Shown: positions 1-11,372 of the stretch, one piece after another | How the letters are laid out: each line of letters starts with the position of its first letter | Position numbering within the stretch: position 1 is the first letter of the stretch | From: Giardia intestinalis | Lineage: Eukaryota | DNA: 11,372 nt | Reading direction: 5' to 3' (one strand) | NCBI GenBank assembly: GCA_000002435.2 | Contig: AACB03000018.1 | Notes under the pieces: model-generated | Database searches by the model: none | What the model was told of the DNA's origin: nothing | Seen by the model: the letters and a program-made list of their open reading frames with translations, nothing else | Program-made: the position numbers and the translations under genes

Positions 1-210
1 TTCACAATGGTTCTACTTGCGAAATTAATCAAGTGCTTGTTGATAAGGGTGTCAATTGCTCCTTGATGCAAAATTCGTGAGTCATCAAAAGAATCAGCAA
101 TCTAGCTATTATGACATTGGAGCCCAAAATGTTTCTAATCTGAATCATTATCTAGTTAAGGAACATATAATATGCCACCTAAGTATAATAATGATAAGTC
201 TCAGATAGAT
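1..210. other. Unique AT-rich flank (~33% GC) abutting the satellite array, with no repeat homology and no convincing ORF or RNA gene
   Basis: Hand count gives 70 G+C in 210 bp. There is no internal repetition and no similarity to the 51-bp unit. The boundary is sharp at ~210/211 (…cagatagatac | atgccaggacaggttggccc…). Confidence 0.7.
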
Positions 211-715
211 ACATGCCAGGACAGGTTGGCCCATCGACGCACCTCGTTGACCGGGGAAACAGCATGCCAGGACAGGTTGGCCCATCGACGCACCTCGTTG
301 ACCGGGGAAACAGCATGCCAGGACAGGTTGGCCCATCGACGCACCTCGTTGACCGGGGAAACAGCATGCCAGGACAGGTTGGCCCATCGACGCACCTCGT
401 TGACCGGGGAAACAGCATGCCAGGACAGGTTGGCCCATCGACGCACCTCGTTGACCGGGGAAACAGCATGCCAGGACAGGTTGGCCCATCGACACCTCGT
501 TGACCGGGGAAACAGCATGCCAGGACAGGTTGGCCCATCGACGCACCTCGTTGACCGGGGAAACAGCATGCCAGGACAGGTTGGCCCATCGACGCACCTC
601 GTTGACCGGGGAAACAGCATGCCAGGACAGGTTGGCCCATCGACGCACCTCGTTGACCGGGGAAACAGCATGCCAGGACAGGTTGGCCCATCGACGCACC
701 TCGTTGACCGGGGAA
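211..715. repeat. Homogeneous edge domain of 10 consecutive class-A monomers with the GC core. There are no B heads and no AT core variant, and the first five units are identical
   Basis: Units start at 259, 310, 361, 412 and so on, all acagcatgccaggacaggttggcccatcgacgcacc…. The single deviation is a 2-bp deletion at ~494 (cgacacctcg). The first B head appears at 716. Confidence 0.85.
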
Positions 716-2138
716 ATGGGACTCCGGGCCAGCTAGGCCCTCGACATACCTCGTTGACCGGGGAAATGGGACTCCGGGCCAGCTAGGCCCATCGACATAC
801 CTCGTTGACCGGGGAAACAGCATGCCAGGACAGGTTGGCCCATCGACGCACCTCGTTGACCGGGGAAACAGCATGCCAGGACAGGTTGGCCCATCGACGC
901 ACCTCGTTGACCGGGGAAACAGCATGCCAGGACAGGTTGGCCATCGACGCACCTCGTTGACCGGGGAAATGGGACTCCGGGCCAGCTAGGCCCATCGACA
1001 TACCTCGTTGACCGGGGAAATGGGACTCCGGGCCAGCTAGGCCCATCGACGCACCTCGTTGACCGGGGAAACAGCATGCCAGGACAGGTTGGCCCATCGA
1101 CACCTCGTTGACCGGGGAAACAGCATGCCAGGACAGGTTGGCCCATCGACGCACCTCGTTGACCGGGGAAACAGCATGCCAGGACAGGTGGCCCATCGAC
1201 ATACCTCGTTGACCGGGGAAACAGCATGCCAGGACAGGTTGGCCCATCGACGCACCCTCGTTGACCGGGGAAACAGCATGCCAGACAGGTTGGCCCATCG
1301 ACGCACCTCGTTGACCGGGAAACAGCATGCCAGGACAGGTTGGCCCATCGACATACCTCGTTGACCGGGAAACAGCATGCCAGGACAGGTTGGCCCATCG
1401 ACGCACCTCGTTGACCGGGGAAATGGGACTCCGGGCCAGCTAGGCCCATCGACATACCCTCGTTGACCGGGGAAACAGCATGCCAGGACAGGTTGGCCCA
1501 TCGACGCACCTCGTTGACCGGGGAAACAGCATGCCAGGACAGGTTGGCCCATCGACGCACCTCGTTGACCGGGGAAACAGCATGCCAGGACAGGTTGGCC
1601 CATCGACGCACCTCGTTGACCGGGGAAATGGGACTCCGGGCCAGCTAGGCCCATCGACGCACCTCGTTGACCGGGGAAATGGGACTCCGGGCCAGCTAGG
1701 CCCATCGACGCACCTCGTTGACCGGGGAAATGGGACTCCGGGCCAGCTAGGCCCATCGACAACCTCGTTGACCGGGGAACAGCATGCCAGGACAGGTTGG
1801 CCCATCGACGCACCTCGTGACCGGGGGAAACCAGCATGCCAGGACAGGTTGGCCCATCGACGCACCTCGTTGACCGGGGAAATGGGACTCCGGGCCAGCT
1901 AGGCCCATCGACATACCTCGTTGACCGGGGAAAACAGCATGCCAGGACAGGTTGGCCCATCGACGCACCTCGTTGACCGGGGAAATGGGACTCCGGGCCA
2001 GCTAGGCCCATCGACATACCTCGTTGACCGGGGAAACAGCATGCCAGGACAGGTTGGCCCATCGACGCACCTCGTTGACCGGGGGAAACAGCATGCCAGG
2101 ACAGGTTGGCCCATCGACGCACCTCGTTGACCGGGGAA

Positions 2139-2546
2139 ACAGCATGCCAGGACAGGTTGGCCCATCGACGCACCTCGTTGACCGGGGAAATGGGACTCCG
2201 GGCCAGCTAGGCCCATCGACATACCTCGTTGACCGGGGAAATGGGACTCCGGGCCAGCTAGGCCCATCGACGCACCTCGTTGACCGGGGAAATGGGACTC
2301 CGGGCCAGCTAGGCCCATCGACATACCTCGTTGACCGGGAAACAGCATGCCAGGACAGGTTGGCCCATCGACGCACCTCGTTGACCGGGGAAATGGGACT
2401 CCGGGCCAGCTAGGCCCATCGACATACCTCGTTGACCGGGGAAATGGGACTCCGGGCCAGCTAGGCCCATCGACGCACCTCGTTGACCGGGGAAATGGGA
2501 CTCCGGGCCAGCTAGGCCCATCGACATACCTCGTTGACCGGGGGAA
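2139..2546. repeat. Higher-order unit (A-b-B-b)x2, 4 monomers or 204 bp per copy. The same quartet recurs at ~2945-3150 and ~3770-3960
   Basis: Monomer typing gives 2139 A, 2190 b, 2241 B, 2292 b, 2342 A, 2393 b, 2444 B, 2495 b. Confidence 0.75.
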
Positions 2547-4643
2547 ACAGCATGCCAGGACAGGTTGGCCCATCGACGCACCTCGTTGACCGGGGAAACA
2601 GCATGCCAGGACAGGTTGGCCCATCGACGCACCTCGTTGACCGGGGAAATGGGACTCCGGGCCAGCTAGGCCCATCGACATACCTCGTTGACCGGGGAAA
2701 CAGCATGCCAGGACAGGTTGGCCCATCGACGCACCTCGTTGACCGGGGAAACAGCATGCCAGGACAGGTTGGCCCATCGACGCACCTCGTTGACCGGGGA
2801 AACAGCATGCCAGGACAGGTTGGCCCATCGACGCACCTCGTTGACCGGGGAAACAGCATGCCAGGACAGGTTGGCCCATCGACGCACCTCGTTGACCGGG
2901 GAAATGGACTCCGGGCCAGCTAGGCCCATCGACGCACCTCGTTGACCGGGGAAACAGCATGCCAGGACAGGTTGGCCCATCGACGCACCTCGTTGACCGG
3001 GGAAATGGGACTCCGGGCCAGCTAGGCCCATCGACATACCTCGTTGACCGGGGAAATGGGACTCCGGGCCAGCTAGGCCCATCGACGCACCTCGTTGACC
3101 GGGGGAAATGGGACTCCGGGCCAGCTAGGCCCATCGACATACCTCGTTGACCGGGGAAACAGCATGCCAGGACAGGTTGGCCCATCGACGCACCTCGTTG
3201 ACCGGGGAAACAGCATGCCAGGACAGGTTGGCCCATCGACGCACCTCGTTGACCGGGGGAAATGGGACTCCGGGCCAGCTAGGCCCATCGACATACCTCG
3301 TTGACCGGGGAAACAGCATGCCAGGACAGGTTGGCCCATCGACGCACCTCGTTGACCGGGGAAACAGCATGCCAGGACAGGTTGGCCCATCGACGCACCT
3401 CGTTGACCGGGGAAACAGCATGCCAGGACAGGTTGGCCCATCGACGCACCTCGTTGACCGGGGAAATGGGACTCCGGGCCAGCTAGGCCCATCGACATAC
3501 CTCGTTGACCGGGGAAACAGCATGCCAGGACAGGTTGGCCCATCGACGCACCTCGTTGACCGGGGAAACAGCATGCCAGGACAGGTTGGCCCATCGACGC
3601 ACCTCGTTGACCGGGGAAACAGCATGCCAGGACAGGTTGGCCCATCGACGCACCTCGTTGACCGGGGAAACAGCATGCCAGGACAGGTTGGCCCATCGAC
3701 GCACCTCGTTGACCGGGGGAAATGGGACTCCGGGCCAGCTAGGCCCATCGACGCACCTCGTTGACCGGGGAAACAGCATGCCAGGACAGGTTGGCCCATC
3801 GACGCACCTCGTTGACCGGGGAAATGGGACTCCGGGCCAGCTAGGCCCATCGACATACCTCGTTGACCGGGGAAATGGGACTCCGGGCCAGCTAGGCCCA
3901 TCGACGCACCTCGTTGACCGGGGAAATGGGACTCCGGGCCAGCTAGGCCCATCGACATACCTCGTTGACCGGGGAAACAGCATGCCAGGACAGGTTGGCC
4001 CATCGACGCACCTCGTTGACCGGGGAAACAGCATGCCAGGACAGGTTGGCCCATCGACGCACCTCGTTGACCGGGGAAATGGGACTCCGGGCCAGCTAGG
4101 CCCATCGACATACCTCGTTGACCGGGGAAACAGCATGCCAGGACAGGTTGGCCCATCGACGCACCTCGTTGACCGGGGAAACAGCATGCCAGGACAGGTT
4201 GGCCCATCGACGCCACCTCGTTGACCCGGGGAAACAGCATGCCAGGACAGGTTGGCCCATCGACATACCTCGTTGACCGGGGAAATGGGACTCCGGGCCA
4301 GCTAGGCCCATCGACATACCTCGTTGACCGGGGAAACAGCATGCCAGGACAGGTTGGCCCATCGACATACCTCGTTGACCGGGGAAACAGCATGCCAGGA
4401 CAGGTTGGCCCATCGACATACCTCGTTGACCGGGGGAAACAGCATGCCAGGACAGGTTGGCCCATCGACGCACCTCGTTGACCGGGGAAACAGCATGCCA
4501 GGACAGGTTGGCCCATCGACATACCTCGTTGACCGGGGGAAACAGCATGCCAGGACAGGTTGGCCCATCGACGCACCTCGTTGACCGGGGAAATGGGACT
4601 CCGGGCCAGCTAGGCCCATCGACGCACCTCGTTGACCGGGGAA

Positions 4644-5100
4644 ACAGCATGCCAGGACAGGTTGGCCCATCGACGCACCTCGTTGACCGGGGAAACAGCA
4701 TGCCAGGACAGGTTGGCCCATCGACATACCTCGTTGACCGGGGAAACAGCATGCCAGGACAGGTTGGCCCATCGACGCACCTCGTTGACCGGGGAAACAG
4801 CATGCCAGGACAGGTTGGCCCATCGACATACCTCGTTGACCGGGGAAACAGCATGCCAGGACAGGTTGGCCCATCGACGCACCTCGTTGACCGGGGAAAC
4901 AGCATGCCAGGACAGGTTGGCCCATCGACGCACCTCGTTGACCGGGGAAACAGCATGCCAGGACAGGTTGGCCCATCGACGCACCTCGTGACCGGGAAAC
5001 AGCATGCCAGGACAGGTTGGCCCATCGACGCACCTCGTTGACCGGGGAAATGGGACTCCGGGCCAGCTAGGCCCATCGACGCACCTCGTTGACCGGGGAA
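4644..5100. repeat. Copy 1 of the 9-monomer block A-a-A-a-A-A-A-A-B. Its seventh monomer (4953-5001) carries two 1-bp deletions
   Basis: The type order was read directly. ORF 4632..4991(+) has the same translation prefix as ORFs 5242..5682 and 6619..7059. Confidence 0.8.
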
Positions 5101-5253
5101 ACAGCATGCCAGGACAGGTTGGCCCATCGACGCACCTCGTTGACCGGGGAAACAGCATGCCAGGACAGGTTGGCCCATCGACGCACCTCGTTGACCGGGG
5201 AAATGGGACTCCGGGCCAGCTAGGCCCATCGACGCACCTCGTTGACCGGGGAA

Positions 5254-5712
5254 ACAGCATGCCAGGACAGGTTGGCCCATCGACGCACCTCGTTGACCGG
5301 GGAAACAGCATGCCAGGACAGGTTGGCCCATCGACATACCTCGTTGACCGGGGAAACAGCATGCCAGGACAGGTTGGCCCATCGACGCACCTCGTTGACC
5401 GGGGAAACAGCATGCCAGGACAGGTTGGCCCATCGACATACCTCGTTGACCGGGGAAACAGCATGCCAGGACAGGTTGGCCCATCGACGCACCTCGTTGA
5501 CCGGGGAAACAGCATGCCAGGACAGGTTGGCCCATCGACGCACCTCGTTGACCGGGGAAACAGCATGCCAGGACAGGTTGGCCCATCGACGCACCTCGTT
5601 GACCGGGGAAACAGCATGCCAGGACAGGTTGGCCCATCGACGCACCTCGTTGACCGGGGAAATGGGACTCCGGGCCAGCTAGGCCCATCGACGCACCTCG
5701 TTGACCGGGGAA
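5254..5712. repeat. Copy 2 of the 9-monomer block A-a-A-a-A-A-A-A-B (459 bp, indel-free)
   Basis: Monomer typing. ORF 5242..5682(+) is identical in translation to ORF 6619..7059(+), and ORF 5220..5645(-) is identical to ORF 6597..7022(-). Confidence 0.85.
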
Positions 5713-6630
5713 ACAGCATGCCAGGACAGGTTGGCCCATCGACGCACCTCGTTGACCGGGGAAACAGCATGCCAGGACAGGTTGGCCCATCGACGCACCT
5801 CGTTGACCGGGGAAATGGGACTCCGGGCCAGCTAGGCCCATCGACGCACCTCGTTGACCGGGGAAACAGCATGCCAGGACAGGTTGGCCCATCGACGCAC
5901 CTCGTTGACCGGGGAAATGGGACTCCGGGCCAGCTAGGCCCATCGACATACCTCGTTGACCGGGGAAATGGGACTCCGGGCCAGCTAGGCCCATCGACAT
6001 ACCTCGTTGACCGGGGAAATGGGACTCCGGGCCAGCTAGGCCCATCGACGCACCTCGTTGACCGGGGAAACAGCATGCCAGGACAGGTTGGCCCATCGAC
6101 GCACCTCGTTGACCGGGGAAATGGGACTCCGGGCCAGCTAGGCCCATCGACATACCTCGTTGACCGGGGAAATGGGACTCCGGGCCAGCTAGGCCCATCG
6201 ACGCACCTCGTTGACCGGGGAAACAGCATGCCAGGACAGGTTGGCCCATCGACGCACCTCGTTGACCGGGGAAACAGCATGCCAGGACAGGTTGGCCCAT
6301 CGACGCACCTCGTTGACCGGGGAAATGGGACTCCGGGCCAGCTAGGCCCATCGACGCACCTCGTTGACCGGGGAAATGGGACTCCGGGCCAGCTAGGCCC
6401 ATCGACATACCTCGTTGACCGGGGAAATGGGACTCCGGGCCAGCTAGGCCCATCGACGCACCTCGTTGACCGGGGAAACAGCATGCCAGGACAGGTTGGC
6501 CCATCGACGCACCTCGTTGACCGGGGAAATGGGACTCCGGGCCAGCTAGGCCCATCGACATACCTCGTTGACCGGGGAAATGGGACTCCGGGCCAGCTAG
6601 GCCCATCGACGCACCTCGTTGACCGGGGAA

Positions 6631-7089
6631 ACAGCATGCCAGGACAGGTTGGCCCATCGACGCACCTCGTTGACCGGGGAAACAGCATGCCAGGACAGGT
6701 TGGCCCATCGACATACCTCGTTGACCGGGGAAACAGCATGCCAGGACAGGTTGGCCCATCGACGCACCTCGTTGACCGGGGAAACAGCATGCCAGGACAG
6801 GTTGGCCCATCGACATACCTCGTTGACCGGGGAAACAGCATGCCAGGACAGGTTGGCCCATCGACGCACCTCGTTGACCGGGGAAACAGCATGCCAGGAC
6901 AGGTTGGCCCATCGACGCACCTCGTTGACCGGGGAAACAGCATGCCAGGACAGGTTGGCCCATCGACGCACCTCGTTGACCGGGGAAACAGCATGCCAGG
7001 ACAGGTTGGCCCATCGACGCACCTCGTTGACCGGGGAAATGGGACTCCGGGCCAGCTAGGCCCATCGACGCACCTCGTTGACCGGGGAA
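6631..7089. repeat. Copy 3 of the 9-monomer block, exactly 1377 bp (27 monomers) downstream of copy 2. The flanking A-x-B triplets are also conserved, giving a 15-monomer superblock
   Basis: The identical ORF translations on both strands at a +1377 offset are described under copy 2. Flanking monomers are u97-99 A-A-B versus u124-126 A-b-B upstream and u109-111 A-A-B versus u136-138 A-b-B downstream. Confidence 0.85.
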
Positions 7090-7702
7090 ACAGCATGCCA
7101 GGACAGGTTGGCCCATCGACGCACCTCGTTGACCGGGGAAATGGGACTCCGGGCCAGCTAGGCCCATCGACATACCTCGTTGACCGGGGGAAATGGGACT
7201 CCGGGCCAGCTAGGCCCATCGACGCACCTCGTTGACCGGGGAAACAGCATGCCAGGACAGGTTGGCCCATCGACGCACCTCGTTGACCGGGGAAATGGGA
7301 CTCCGGGCCAGCTAGGCCCATCGACATACCTCGTTGACCGGGGAAATGGGACTCCGGGCCAGCTAGGCCCATCGACGCACCTCGTTGACCGGGGAAACAG
7401 CATGCCAGGACAGGTTGGCCCATCGACGCACCTCGTTGACCGGGGAAATGGGACTCCGGGCCAGCTAGGCCCATCGACATACCTCGTTGACCGGGGAAAT
7501 GGGACTCCGGGCCAGCTAGGCCCATCGACGCACCTCGTTGACCGGGGAAACAGCATGCCAGGACAGGTTGGCCCATCGACGCACCTCGTTGACCGGGGAA
7601 ATGGGACTCCGGGCCAGCTAGGCCCATCGACATACCTCGTTGACCGGGGAAATGGGACTCCGGGCCAGCTAGGCCCATCGACGCACCTCGTTGACCGGGG
7701 AA
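7090..7702. repeat. (A-b-B)x4 three-monomer higher-order repeat, 153 bp per copy
   Basis: Units start at 7090 A, 7141 b (+1 g in its G-run), 7193 B, 7244 A, 7295 b, 7346 B, 7397 A, 7448 b, 7499 B, 7550 A, 7601 b, 7652 B. ORF 7180..8280(+) shows the corresponding GTPGQLGPSTH / SMPGQVGPSTH / GTPGQLGPSTY cycle. Confidence 0.85.
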
Positions 7703-8299
7703 ATGGGACTCCGGGCCAGCTAGGCCCATCGACGCACCTCGTTGACCGGGGAAACAGCATGCCAGGACAGGTTGGCCCATCGACGCACCTCGTTGACCGG
7801 GGAAACAGCATGCCAGGACAGGTTGGCCCATCGACGCACCTCGTTGACCGGGGAAATGGGACTCCGGGCCAGCTAGGCCCATCGACGCACCTCGTTGACC
7901 GGGGAAATGGGACTCCGGGCCAGCTAGGCCCATCGACATACCTCGTTGACCGGGGAAATGGGACTCCGGGCCAGCTAGGCCCATCGACGCACCTCGTTGA
8001 CCGGGGAAACAGCATGCCAGGACAGGTTGGCCCATCGACGCACCTCGTTGACCGGGGAAATGGGACTCCGGGCCAGCTAGGCCCATCGACATACCTCGTT
8101 GACCGGGGAAATGGGACTCCGGGCCAGCTAGGCCCATCGACGCACCTCGTTGACCGGGGAAACAGCATGCCAGGACAGGTTGGCCCATCGACGCACCTCG
8201 TTGACCGGGGAAACAGCATGCCAGGACAGGTGGCCCATCGACGCACCTCGTTGACCGGGAATGGGATCCGGGCCAGCTAGGCCCATCGACATCCTCGTT

Positions 8300-11200
8300 G
8301 ACCGGGGAAATGGGACTCCGGGCCAGCTAGGCCCATCGACGCACCTCGTTGACCGGGGAAACAGCATGCCAGGAAGGTTGGCCCATCGACGCACCTCGTT
8401 GACCGGGGAAACAGCATGCCAGGACAGGTTGGCCCATCGACGCACCTCGTTGACCGGGGAAATGGGACTCCGGGCCAGCTAGGCCCATCGACGCACCTCG
8501 TTGACCGGGGAAACAGCATGCCAGGACAGGTTGGCCCATCGACGCACCTCGTGACCGGGGAAACAGCATGCCAGGACAGGTTGGCCCATCGACGCACCTC
8601 GTTGACCGGGGGAAACAGCATGCCAGGACAGGTTGGCCCATCGACGCACCTCGTTGACCGGGGAAATGGGACTCCGGGCCAGCTAGGCCCATCGACGCAC
8701 CTCGTTGACCGGGGAACAGCATGCCAGGACAGGTTGGCCCATCGACGCACCTCGTTGACCGGGGAAACAGCATGCCAGGACAGGTTGGCCCATCGACGCA
8801 CCTCGTTGACCGGGGAAATGGGACTCCGGGCCAGCTAGGCCCATCGACGCACCTCGTTGACCGGGGAAACAGCATGCCAGGACAGGTTGGCCCATCGACG
8901 CACCTCGTTGACCGGGGAAACAGCATGCCAGGACAGGTTGGCCCATCGACGCACCTCGTTGACCGGGGAAATGGGACTCCGGGCCAGCTAGGCCCATCGA
9001 CGCACCTCGTTGACCGGGGAAATGGGACTCCGGACAGGTTGGCCCATCGACGCACCTCGTTGACCGGGGAAACAGCATGCCAGGACAGGTTGGCCCATCG
9101 ACGCACCTCGTTGACCGGGGAAATGGGACTCCGGGCCAGCTAGGCCCATCGACACCTCGTTGACCGGGGAAACAGCATGCCAGGACAGGTTGGCCCATCG
9201 ACGCACCTCGTTGACCGGGGAAACAGCATGCCAGGACAGGTTGGCCCATCGACGCACCTCGTTGACCGGGGAAACAGCATGCCAGGACAGGTTGGCCCAT
9301 CGACGCACCTCGTTGACCGGGGAAACAGCATGCCAGGACAGGTTGGCCCATCGACGCACCTCGTTGACCGGGGAAACAGCATGCCAGGACAGGTTGGCCC
9401 ATCGACGCACCTCGTTGACCGGGGAAACAGCATGCCAGGACAGGTTGGCCCATCGACGCACCTCGTTGACCGGGGAAATGGGACTCCGGGCCAGCTAGGC
9501 CCATCGACGCACCTCGTTGACCGGGGAAACAGCATGCCAGGACAGGTTGGCCCATCGACGCACCTCGTTGACCGGGGAAACAGCATGCCAGGACAGGTTG
9601 GCCCATCGACGCACCTCGTTGACCGGGGAAACAGCATGCCAGGACAGGTTGGCCCATCGACGCACCTCGTTGACCGGGGAAACAGCATGCCAGGACAGGT
9701 TGGCCCATCGACGCACCTCGTTGACCGGGGAAATGGGACTCCGGGCCAGCTAGGCCCATCGACGCACCTCGTTGACCGGGGAAACAGCATGCCAGGACAG
9801 GTTGGCCCATCGACGCACCTCGTTGACCGGGGAAACAGCATGCCAGGACAGGTTGGCCCATCGACGCACCTCGTTGACCGGGGAAATGGGACTCCGGCAG
9901 CTAGGCCCATCGACGCACCTCGTTGACCGGGGAAATGGGACTCCGGGCCAGCTAGGCCCATCGACGCACCTCGTTGACCGGGGAAATGGGACTCCGGGCA
10001 GCTAGGCCCATCGACGCACCTCGTTGACCGGGGAAATGCATGCCGGCAGCTAGGCCCATCGACGCACCTCGTTGACCGGGGAAATGGACTCCGGGCCAGC
10101 TAGGCCCATCGACGCACCTCGTTGACCGGGGAAACAGCATGCCAGGACAGGTTGGCCCATCGACGCACCTCGTTGACCGGGGAAATGGGACTCCGGGCCA
10201 GCTAGGCCCATCGACGCACCTCGTTGACCGGGGAAATGGGACTCCGGGCCAGCTAGGCCCATCGACACCTCGTTGACCGGGGAAATGGGACCCGGGCCAG
10301 CTAGGCCCATCGACGCACCTCGTTGACCGGGGAAACAGCATGCCAGGACAGGTTGGCCCATCGACGCACCTCGTTGACCGGGGAAACAGCATGCCAGGAG
10401 GTTGGCCCATCGACGCACCTCGTTGACCGGGGAAACAGCATGCCAGGACAGGTTGGCCCATCGACGCACCTCGTTGACCGGGGAAATGGGACTCCGGGCC
10501 AGCTAGGCCCATCGACGCACCTCGTTGACCGGGGAAACAGCATGCCAGGACAGGTTGGCCCATCGACGCACCTCGTTGACCGGGGAAACAGCATGCCAGG
10601 ACAGGTTGGCCCATCGACGCACCTCGTTGACCGGGGAAACAGCATGCCAGGACAGGTTGGCCCATCGACGCACCTCGTTGACCGGGGAAATGGACTCCGG
10701 ACCAGCTAGGCCCATCGACGCACCTCGTTGACCGGGGAAATGGGACCCGGGCCAGCTAGGCCCATCGACGCACCTCGTTGACCGGGGAAATGGGACTCCG
10801 GGCCAGCTAGGCCCATCGACGCACCTCGTTGACCGGGGAAACAGCATGCCAGGACAGGTTGGCCCATCGACGCACCTCGTTGACCGGGGAAACAGCATGC
10901 CAGGACAGGTTGGCCCATCGACGCACCTCGTTGACCGGGGAAACAGCATGCCAGGACAGGTTGGCCCATCGACGCACCTCGTTGACCGGGGAAACAGCAG
11001 CCAGGACAGGTTGGCCCATCGACGCACCTCGTTGACCGGGGAAACAGCATGCCAGGACAGGTTGGCCCATCGACGCACCTCGTTGACCGGGGAAAAGCAT
11101 CCGGACAGCTAGGCCCATCGACGCACCTCGTTGACCGGGGAAACAGCATGCCAGGACAGGTTGGCCCATCGACGCACCTCGTTGACCGGGGAAATGGGAC

Positions 11201-11372
11201 TCCGGACAGCTAGGCCCATCGACACCTCGTTGACCGGGGAAATGGGACTCCGGGCCAGCTAGGCCCATCGACGCACCTCGTTGACCGGGAAACAGCATGC
11301 CAGGACAGGTTGGCCCATCGACGCACCTCGTTGACCGGGGAAATGGGACTCCGGCCAGCTAGGCCCATCGAC
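8300..11372. repeat. 3' domain lacking the AT core variant entirely. It is indel-rich and contains chimeric A/B monomers
   Basis: No cgacatacc occurs after ~8294, and every core reads cgacgcacc or the 2-bp deleted form. Chimeric heads are at 9022-9071 (atgggactccgg+acaggtt), ~10037-10055 (atgcatgccggcagcta), ~11096-11112 (aagcatccggacagcta) and ~11201-11215 (atgggactccggacagcta). Confidence 0.8.

What the first reader, a model, noticed from the sequence alone, without database searches (positions are those of the whole stretch)
716..8294. Core GC/AT dimorphism linked to head class and spatially confined
The core site cgac[GC]acc versus cgac[AT]acc defines four monomer types. In the zone where it occurs (716-8294), the AT form is on about 32 of 60 B-class monomers (~53%) but only about 12 of 89 A-class monomers (~13%). 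It is absent from the first 10 monomers and from the last ~61 monomers (8300-11372). This indicates domain-wise homogenisation and non-random linkage of head and core variants within an array.
Basis: seen in the sequence. Interest (0 to 1): 0.5.

Follow-up and report, generated by a model that had tools for sequence, protein, structure and literature searches.

The report
Giant coding repeat in Giardia kinase

Summary
Automated typing gives 220 monomers. The AT core is on 32/60 B-head and 12/89 A-head monomers in 717-8310, and on none of the first 10 or last 61. Fisher p is about 4e-7, and 0 of 148 circular shifts reach the observed overlap.

The array is not an anonymous satellite. The 211-bp flank and the repeat in frame +1 are homologous to the C-terminus of a Giardia duodenalis NEK-type kinase (P15 EFO64379.1; assemblage B KWX12190.1), which carries only 3-7 units. 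Here there are at least 220.

The A and B heads (NSMPGQVG / NGTPGQLG) occur in all three lineages. GC to AT is a derived Thr-His to Thr-Tyr change seen only in this window.

Dimer, trimer, 12-unit and 16-unit block duplications explain both the linkage and the local spread. After all tandem duplications are collapsed, the association weakens to p=0.04.

Two caveats apply. The sequence carries deletion-biased indel noise and no point substitutions, including three frameshifts in the flank. The right edge of the AT zone coincides with a drop in consensus quality.

This is an ordinary process at an apparently undescribed locus.

The parts
1..211 (+). 3' coding flank of a Giardia NEK-type Ser/Thr kinase gene (the non-kinase C-terminal region just upstream of the repeats). 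It reads in three phase segments (about 3-76, 77-160, 163-212), separated by three 1-bp deletions relative to both orthologs.
   Evidence: DNA alignment A1 with P15 (84.4% identity) and assemblage B (73.8%) shows exactly three 1-bp gaps in the window. The frame-restored translation HNGSTCEINQVLVDKGVNCSLMQN/VSHQKNQQSSYYDIGAQNVSNLNHYLV/TYNMPPKYNNDKSQID aligns with P0062 and has no stop.
212..11372 (+). Tandem array of 51-bp units (220 monomers; the last is cut by the window end). In frame +1 it encodes 17-aa repeats N-[SMPGQVG|GTPGQLG]-PST-[H|Y]-LVDRG.
   Evidence: TRF; segmentation and typing; translation; homology to the repeats in P0006, P0059 and P0062.
209..716 (+). First 10 monomers, all A head with GC core (monomer 6 has the core dinucleotide deleted).
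717..8310 (+). AT-containing zone, monomers 11-159: 76 A-GC, 12 A-AT, 28 B-GC, 32 B-AT, 1 undetermined.
8311..11372 (+). AT-free tail, 61 monomers (37 A-GC, 20 B-GC, 3 core-deleted B, 1 truncated). It has the highest deletion density and holds all five hybrid A/B heads.
2548..4234 (+). Duplicated 16-monomer block. The type string 11411113143411411 occurs at monomers 47-63 and again at 63-79.
   Evidence: This 17-type string is the longest repeated substring; shuffles give a mean of 9.6 and a maximum of 15.
4543..5917 (+). Duplicated 12-monomer block. The type string 131212111131131 occurs at monomers 86-100 and 98-112. It carries the A-AT/A-GC dimers.
7142..8213 (+). Run of the 153-bp trimer B-AT / B-GC / A-GC (type string 4314314314331134314311).
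5000..8213 (+). Nearly error-free stretch (1 of 63 monomers non-canonical). Frame +1 is open except at a single G insertion.

Best explanation
The window is the 3' end of a Giardia duodenalis NEK-family kinase gene. It is orthologous to EFO64379.1 of isolate P15 (assemblage E) and to KWX12190.1/ESU43930.1 of assemblage B. The genome it comes from is closer to E than to B, probably assemblage A or a close relative.

The gene's C-terminal 17-aa (51-bp) repeat has 3-7 units in the orthologs. Here it has expanded to at least 220 units (at least 11.2 kb).

The two 'heads' are two old unit variants, NSMPGQVG and NGTPGQLG, that predate the split of the assemblages. The core GC to AT change is a derived tandem double transition, ACG CAC to ACA TAC. 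It is silent in Thr and changes His to Tyr.

Inferred steps: the AT change arose once, most likely on a B unit. It then spread only locally, because the array grows by duplicating blocks of adjacent units through unequal sister-chromatid or homologous exchange, or through replication slippage. The visible blocks are B-AT/B-GC dimers, B-AT/B-GC/A-GC trimers, and 12- and 16-unit blocks. At least one exchange between head and core moved AT onto an A head, and the resulting A-AT/A-GC dimer was then amplified. Linkage and confinement are therefore by-products of block-wise amplification, not of selection.

Shown: the typing and statistics, the block duplications, the homology, the coding frame, the purifying selection on the repeat peptide across lineages, and the ancestral state (His).

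Inferred: a single origin on B, the recombinational transfer to A, the molecular mechanism, and that the many 1-bp indels are consensus errors.
For: Homology:
- A full phmmer search with the +1 translation hits P0006 (76% identity over 50 aa at its C-terminus).
- The sources name it a Ser/Thr kinase of G. duodenalis assemblage B. Its cluster-mate is 68 aa (4 units) longer.
- The P15 ortholog, 'Kinase, NEK', carries the same flank and repeats.
- The DNA alignment of the flank gives 84% identity to P15 and 74% to assemblage B.

Unit comparison:
- SM-type and G-type units occur in all three lineages.
- The AAC-AGC-ATG versus AAT-GGG junction is shared by the window and assemblage B.
- CAC (His) is present in every ortholog unit, and TAC (Tyr) only in the window.
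- Assemblage B is a pure SM/GG dimer array with its own perfect head-core linkage (Ala after the SM head, Thr after the GG head).

Coding constraint: variable sites across lineages by codon position are 6/2/13, and eight codons vary only synonymously.

Block amplification:
- Repeated type strings at offsets of 16 and 12 monomers, the longest being 17 types against a shuffle maximum of 15.
- A trimer run and dimers are present.
- AT rarely follows AT (5 adjacencies against 12.7 expected, p=0.0016).

A-AT monomers sit in three clusters, mostly as 2-1 dimers. No single-step intermediate cores (ACA or GTA) exist.
Against: - Frame +1 is interrupted by about 66 indel bases in 46 monomers and by three frameshifts in the 211-bp flank. 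If these are real, the gene is dead in this genome and 'coding repeat' applies only historically.
- No assemblage A ortholog was returned from the protein collection.
- The right-hand AT boundary coincides with a quality change in the consensus.
- Neither the 5' part of the gene nor the 3' end of the array is in the window, so synteny and total length are unknown.
- A single origin on B cannot be proven from one array.
Confidence: 0.7

Rival explanations
1. Pseudogene or free-running minisatellite. In this lineage the kinase gene's 3' end is inactivated (real frameshifts), and the former coding repeat has expanded as neutral DNA. The variant pattern is still produced by block duplication.
For: - There are three -1 frameshifts in 211 bp of flank and frame breaks in 46 of 218 monomers.
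- No assemblage A protein ortholog was found.
- The expansion is 30- to 70-fold over the orthologs.
Against: - Every deviation is an indel. There are 50 deleted and 16 inserted bases and no true point substitution in 11 kb.
- 16 of the indels are G3/G5 versions of the G4 run, and they are not co-inherited with the duplicated blocks.
- The flank segments contain no stop codon once the frame is restored.
- Frameshifts caused by long-read homopolymer errors are documented for a Giardia assembly (PMC7000408).
Confidence: 0.22
2. The confinement, especially the sharp right edge at about 8310, is an assembly feature. The tail could come from another allele of the tetraploid genome, from a low-coverage contig end, or from a mis-join. 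In that case the true array may carry AT units beyond 8310.
For: - The last AT monomer (159) lies 1-2 monomers after the switch from 1/63 to 21/62 non-canonical monomers.
- All five hybrid A/B heads lie in the tail.
- Three tail monomers, all B head, have exactly the dimorphic dinucleotide deleted. This is what a consensus would produce at a GC/AT-heterogeneous site.
Against: - Random errors cannot turn AT into GC at about 15 expected sites.
- The head pattern in the tail is crisp, and its B fraction matches the zone (0.39 against 0.40). Wholesale majority-rule homogenisation therefore did not occur.
- The tail is not a copy of any zone segment (longest common substring 12 against a shuffled mean of 12.8).
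- The left edge (monomers 1-10) lies in ordinary-quality sequence.
Confidence: 0.2
3. Selection at the protein level. Tyr is favoured in GTPGQL units and His in SMPGQV units, so the association reflects function rather than history.
For: - The repeat peptide is under purifying selection across lineages.
- Assemblage B also shows a head-linked residue difference at the neighbouring codon (Ala/Thr).
Against: - All four combinations exist, and B-GC is as common as B-AT in the zone (28 against 32).
- The tail has 20 B units without any Tyr.
- The pattern follows duplicated blocks.
- After collapsing duplications the association is marginal (p=0.04).
Confidence: 0.06
4. Anonymous non-coding satellite DNA with higher-order repeats.
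For: - The array is long and homogeneous and abuts an AT-rich flank.
- There is no Pfam or Rfam hit.
- The word-index protein searches found nothing.
Against: Flank and units are homologous, in frame, to annotated Giardia kinase proteins. Variation across lineages has a codon-position pattern of 6/2/13.
Confidence: 0.03

Closest known systems
C-terminal 17-aa repeat of the Giardia duodenalis NEK-type kinase orthogroup (EFO64379.1 in P15; KWX12190.1 and ESU43930.1 in assemblage B)
   Same: The flank sequence, the 51-bp unit, the reading frame, the two unit types (SM and G) and the conserved PSTHLVDRGN body are all shared. Copy number already differs between two assemblage B isolates, 3 against 7 units.
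   Different: The window has at least 220 units instead of 3-7. It has the Tyr (AT) variant that neither ortholog has, an irregular interspersion instead of a strict dimer (assemblage B) or a B-A-A trimer (P15), and an interrupted frame as sequenced.
Minisatellites/VNTRs with variant-repeat interspersion (the basis of MVR mapping) and internally expanding sub-blocks in human VNTRs (e.g. PMC8327921, PMC2674676, seen; not read in detail)
   Same: The unit is 10-100 bp. There are a few discrete unit variants. Interspersion patterns are generated by duplication of adjacent units, and variants spread locally.
   Different: The array is much longer than typical minisatellite alleles. It lies in a protist coding region, and only one allele is available, so polymorphism in this lineage is untested.
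Satellite DNA higher-order repeats and concerted evolution (review PMC8122249)
   Same: Blocks of more than one monomer are amplified and homogenised together. The dimers and trimers here do the same.
   Different: There is no array-wide HOR: lag-2 and lag-3 autocorrelations are weak. The monomers are identical rather than 70% alike, and the sequence is coding in origin rather than centromeric or heterochromatic.

Membership tests
Giardia NEK-type kinase orthogroup with C-terminal 17-aa repeat (EFO64379.1 / KWX12190.1) | Sequence immediately upstream of the repeats is homologous to the orthologs' C-terminal region | tested here: met
   84.4% DNA identity to P15 and 73.8% to assemblage B over the 211-bp flank. 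The frame-restored peptide aligns throughout.
Giardia NEK-type kinase orthogroup with C-terminal 17-aa repeat (EFO64379.1 / KWX12190.1) | 51-bp units encoding x-PGQ-x-PSTHLVDRGN in the gene's frame | tested here: met
   The phmmer E-value is 7.7e-14, with 76% identity over 50 aa.
Giardia NEK-type kinase orthogroup with C-terminal 17-aa repeat (EFO64379.1 / KWX12190.1) | Kinase domain and conserved neighbourhood (four kinases and HMG-CoA synthase upstream) | not testable with these tools
   The window starts only 211 bp before the array. The neighbourhood is seen only in the P15 and assemblage B loci.
Giardia NEK-type kinase orthogroup with C-terminal 17-aa repeat (EFO64379.1 / KWX12190.1) | Uninterrupted open reading frame through flank and repeats | tested here: inconclusive
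   There are three -1 shifts in the flank and 46 indel-bearing monomers. The error profile (indels only, homopolymer-centred) fits consensus noise, but this cannot be proven without reads.
Minisatellite / VNTR with variant repeats | Head-to-tail units of about 10-100 bp with discrete interspersed variants | tested here: met
   Four canonical 51-mers account for 172 of 218 monomers.
Minisatellite / VNTR with variant repeats | Copy number polymorphic between individuals | tested here: met
   Met for the orthologous locus: assemblage B isolates carry 3 against 7 units (894 against 962 aa). It was not tested within the window's own lineage.
Satellite DNA with higher-order repeats | Non-coding tandem array | tested here: not met
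   The units are translated in annotated orthologs and evolve with a codon-position pattern of 6/2/13.
Satellite DNA with higher-order repeats | Array-wide multi-monomer periodicity | tested here: not met
   Only local runs are present (a trimer run at 7142-8213, dimers, two block duplications). Autocorrelations at lags 2-9 are at most 0.2 in absolute value.
Collagen-like (Gly-X-Y) repeat proteins | Long uninterrupted Gly-X-Y runs; Pfam Collagen match | tested here: not met
   There are at most three G-X-Y triplets per unit (GTP GQL GPS), and there is no Pfam collagen hit.

The most novel reading that the evidence does not exclude
The array is intact and translated, so this isolate makes a kinase with a disordered tail of more than 3,700 residues built from at least 220 repeats, 30 to 70 times longer than in sister assemblages. 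The unit order (SM/GT, His/Tyr) would then differ between the four genome copies and between isolates. That would give both a hypervariable typing locus and a rapidly evolving protein feature.
Probability: 0.3. Interest if true: 0.5.

Novelty: new member of a known kind. Interest (0 to 1): 0.3.

Why it matters
For tandem-repeat biology this is a clean but ordinary example of how block duplication creates linkage between variant sites and confines a young variant to part of an array.

For Giardia genomics it flags three things:
- a coding VNTR whose length differs by nearly two orders of magnitude between assemblages, making it a likely assembly breakpoint and a potential high-resolution typing marker;
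- two unit types that have persisted across assemblages;
- concrete annotation problems, namely frameshifts in this assembly and a probable frameshifted C-terminus in the P15 protein.

Tried and rejected
- Exact and degenerate DNA pattern scans of viral, metagenome and prokaryotic genome collections found nothing, or single chance hits in non-repetitive sequence.
- BLAST against plasmids and phages found nothing.
- Rfam found nothing. Pfam on the three open frames gave only sub-threshold noise.
- Word-index protein searches with all three open frames found nothing. Only the full phmmer scan found the Giardia protein. Its other 57 hits are unrelated periodic proteins; I inspected five of them (P0001-P0003, P0023, P0033).
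- Literature searches for the DNA or peptide strings gave no hits. The olive 51-bp satellite Oe51 was rejected because it is 33.5% GC against 63% here. No paper on a Giardia VNTR at this locus was found.
- DNA hairpin potential of the four monomers is not different from shuffles, with z between -1.0 and +0.8. A structure-driven explanation of the core dimorphism was therefore dropped.
- The idea that the tail is a re-assembled copy of part of the zone was rejected.
Full report
**1. What is in the window**

Positions 1-211 are AT-rich unique sequence. From 212 to the end of the window there is a single tandem array with a 51-bp period and about 219 copies. GC content is about 63% across the array.

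I cut the array at the conserved CTCGTTGACCGGGGAAA junction, which gave 220 monomers. Of the 218 complete monomers, 172 are exactly one of four 51-mers. These combine head A (CAGCATGCCAGGACAGGTTGGCCC) or head B (TGGGACTCCGGGCCAGCTAGGCCC) with core CGAC-GC-ACC or CGAC-AT-ACC.

**2. Check of the observation**

In monomers 11-159 (717-8310) the AT core is on 32 of 60 B monomers. Thirty of these are exact, and two have one base of the dinucleotide missing. It is on 12 of 89 A monomers. There is no AT in the first 10 monomers, which are all A, or in the last 61.

- Fisher's exact test in the zone gives OR 7.2, p=3.7e-7.
- D'=0.54 and r2=0.18.
- Monomers in an array are not independent, so I added two controls.
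  - Circular shifts of the core track against the head track never reach the observed overlap: 32 observed, mean 17.6, maximum 26, 0 of 148 shifts.
  - After greedily collapsing every tandem duplication in the string of monomer types, the association keeps its direction but is only marginal: 12/21 against 3/15, p=0.04.
- The empty tail has a hypergeometric P of 8.7e-8. The longest AT-free run (61) exceeds every one of 100,000 permutations, whose maximum is 55.
- AT density is flat at 5-6 per 20 monomers across the zone and then drops to zero, while the B-head fraction stays the same (0.40 against 0.39).

**3. Internal structure**

The type string (1=A-GC, 2=A-AT, 3=B-GC, 4=B-AT) contains several block features:

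- a 17-type string repeated at an offset of 16 monomers (47-63 and 63-79);
- a 15-type string repeated at an offset of 12 (86-100 and 98-112);
- a run of the trimer 4-3-1 (7142-8213);
- 2-1 dimers.

The longest repeated substring is 17, against a shuffle mean of 9.6 and a maximum of 15.

AT seldom follows AT: 5 adjacencies against 12.7 expected, p=0.0016. B runs typically start with B-AT followed by B-GC. The twelve A-AT monomers fall in three clusters, mostly as 2-1 dimers.

There is no array-wide higher-order period.

**4. Sequence quality**

Against the four canonical monomers there are 50 deleted and 16 inserted bases. The only 'substitutions' are in five mosaic A/B heads. There is not one simple point substitution in 11 kb.

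Sixteen indels are G3 or G5 versions of the G4 run, and they are not co-inherited with the duplicated blocks.

Non-canonical monomers are unevenly spread:

| Monomers | Coordinates | Non-canonical |
|---|---|---|
| 2-94 | 260-4999 | 24 of 93 |
| 95-157 | 5000-8213 | 1 of 63 |
| 158-219 | 8214-11343 | 21 of 62 |

All the mosaic heads are in the last segment. This is the profile of a long-read consensus. Frameshifts from such homopolymer errors are reported for a Giardia PacBio assembly (PMC7000408).

Five monomers have exactly the dimorphic dinucleotide deleted. This may mark positions where reads or alleles disagree, but that is inference.

**5. Identity**

DNA searches of viral, metagenomic, prokaryotic, plasmid and phage collections, and Rfam, Pfam and literature string searches, found nothing relevant. 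Word-index protein searches with the three open frames also found nothing.

A full phmmer scan with frame +1 (NSMPGQVGPSTHLVDRG / NGTPGQLGPST[H/Y]LVDRG) hit P0006. Identity is 76% over 50 residues at its C-terminus. The sources name it a Ser/Thr kinase of Giardia duodenalis assemblage B.

P0006 ends ...NLNHYLVKRTYNVSSAYNTDKSQTNSALIQLAPSTHLVDRGNSMPGQMTPSAHLVDRGNGGPGQLAPSTHLVGFYNSII. Its cluster-mate P0059 is 68 aa longer, which is two more SM+GG dimers.

The assemblage E ortholog (P0062, 'Kinase, NEK', isolate P15) has an even closer flank, CEINQVLVDKGVNCSLMQ..., followed by seven units.

At the DNA level the window flank is 84.4% identical to P15 and 73.8% to assemblage B. P15 and assemblage B are 73% identical to each other. 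The window therefore comes from a Giardia genome closer to E than to B. Assemblage A or a close relative is likely, but that is not shown.

**6. Coding status**

The window flank differs from both orthologs by exactly three 1-bp deletions. Once these are restored, the flank has no stop codon and runs in phase into frame +1 of the array.

Across window, P15 and assemblage B units, variable nucleotide sites fall 6/2/13 on codon positions 1/2/3. Eight codons (N, P, G, Q, P, S, D, G) vary only synonymously. The peptide has therefore been under purifying selection.

I cannot decide whether this particular copy is intact. The indel profile favours consensus error. The lack of an assemblage A protein in the collection and the three flank shifts leave a pseudogene possible.

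**7. What the variants are**

SM-type (A) and G-type (B) units occur in all three lineages. The synonymous AAC/AAT difference that accompanies them is shared by the window and assemblage B. The head dimorphism is therefore old.

This explains why the heads differ at 9 of 24 bases while the rest of the unit is identical.

All ortholog units have ACG CAC (Thr-His). ACA TAC (Thr-Tyr) occurs only in the window, and no single-step intermediate is present. AT is therefore derived and probably arose once.

All four head-core combinations exist. Either an exchange between head and core or, much less likely, a repeated double mutation must have occurred.

Assemblage B shows the same kind of linkage in miniature. 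Ala follows the SM head and Thr follows the GG head in every unit of a strict dimer array.

**8. Mechanism**

The most economical account is as follows. AT arose on a B unit inside an array that was already expanding. Duplication of adjacent blocks (dimers, trimers, 12- and 16-unit blocks) spread it locally and kept it mostly on B. One or a few intra-unit exchanges created A-AT, which was then amplified as a dimer. Regions that did not take part remained AT-free: the 5' edge, which is a pure A-GC run, and the tail.

The block duplications are shown. The molecular process (unequal exchange, slippage or conversion) is inferred from general knowledge of tandem arrays (review PMC8122249).

**9. 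Caveat on confinement**

The right-hand boundary of the AT zone lies within two monomers of the switch from the cleanest to the noisiest part of the consensus. An allele switch, a coverage drop near a contig end, or a mis-join cannot be excluded.

Random error cannot remove about 15 expected AT cores. The head pattern in the tail is neither homogenised nor a copy of any zone segment. I therefore consider the boundary more likely real.

**10. Verdict**

The phenomenon is the expected behaviour of a tandem array that grows by block duplication.

The added value is the identification of the array as a massively expanded coding VNTR of a Giardia NEK-type kinase, with trans-assemblage unit types. 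I found no description of this locus in the searched literature.

Noticed in passing
window 76-77, 157-158, 210-212: There are three single-base deletions relative to both Giardia orthologs. Each shifts the frame by -1, so together they restore the phase. No stop codons remain once they are repaired.
   Followed up: partly
window, monomers 6, 18, 176, 198, 217 (464-512, 1072-1120, 9124-9172, 10237-10285, 11195-11242): The dimorphic dinucleotide itself is deleted (CGACACC) five times. All three cases in the tail are on B heads. This may be consensus drop-out at sites that are GC/AT-heterogeneous among alleles of the tetraploid genome.
   Followed up: no
window 9023-9072, 10037-10084, 10691-10740, 11096-11143, 11195-11242: These monomers have mosaic A/B heads with extra deletions, and they occur only in the last 2.4 kb. 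They look like a consensus across reads or alleles that differ in head type.
   Followed up: partly
window 5000-8213 versus 260-4999 and 8214-11343: There are three zones of very different consensus quality: 1/63, 24/93 and 21/62 non-canonical monomers.
   Followed up: partly
window, G4 run of the unit (unit positions 44-47): The run is G5 in 10 monomers and G3 in 6. The changes go in both directions and are not inherited with the duplicated blocks.
   Followed up: yes
L004 12680-12852 (P15, EFO64379.1): The annotated P15 protein switches frame inside the repeats (…GNGHRARWVRPRTSLIGET…) because one G is missing in AAC GG-ACA. With the G restored it would read GTPGQVG… and end …SMPGQVGCF*. The deposited C-terminus is therefore probably an artefact.
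   Followed up: partly
L005 12521-12687 and L006 5521-5891 (assemblage B isolates): The copy number of the SM+GG dimer differs between two assemblage B isolates, 1 against 3 dimers (894 against 962 aa). The orthologous locus is therefore a true VNTR.
   Followed up: yes
protein collection: No assemblage A ortholog of this kinase's 600-aa non-kinase region was returned, although the E and B orthologs are annotated. The gene may be unannotated, broken or missing in assemblage A assemblies.
   Followed up: no
window 209-716: The array starts abruptly with ten identical A-GC units. There are no degenerate edge monomers, unlike the diverged first unit in the orthologs (NTLGQLG in P15, SALIQLA in assemblage B).
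   Followed up: no
method (versus 40): The word-index protein search missed the Giardia homolog when queried with the repeat. Only the exhaustive phmmer scan found it.
   Followed up: yes
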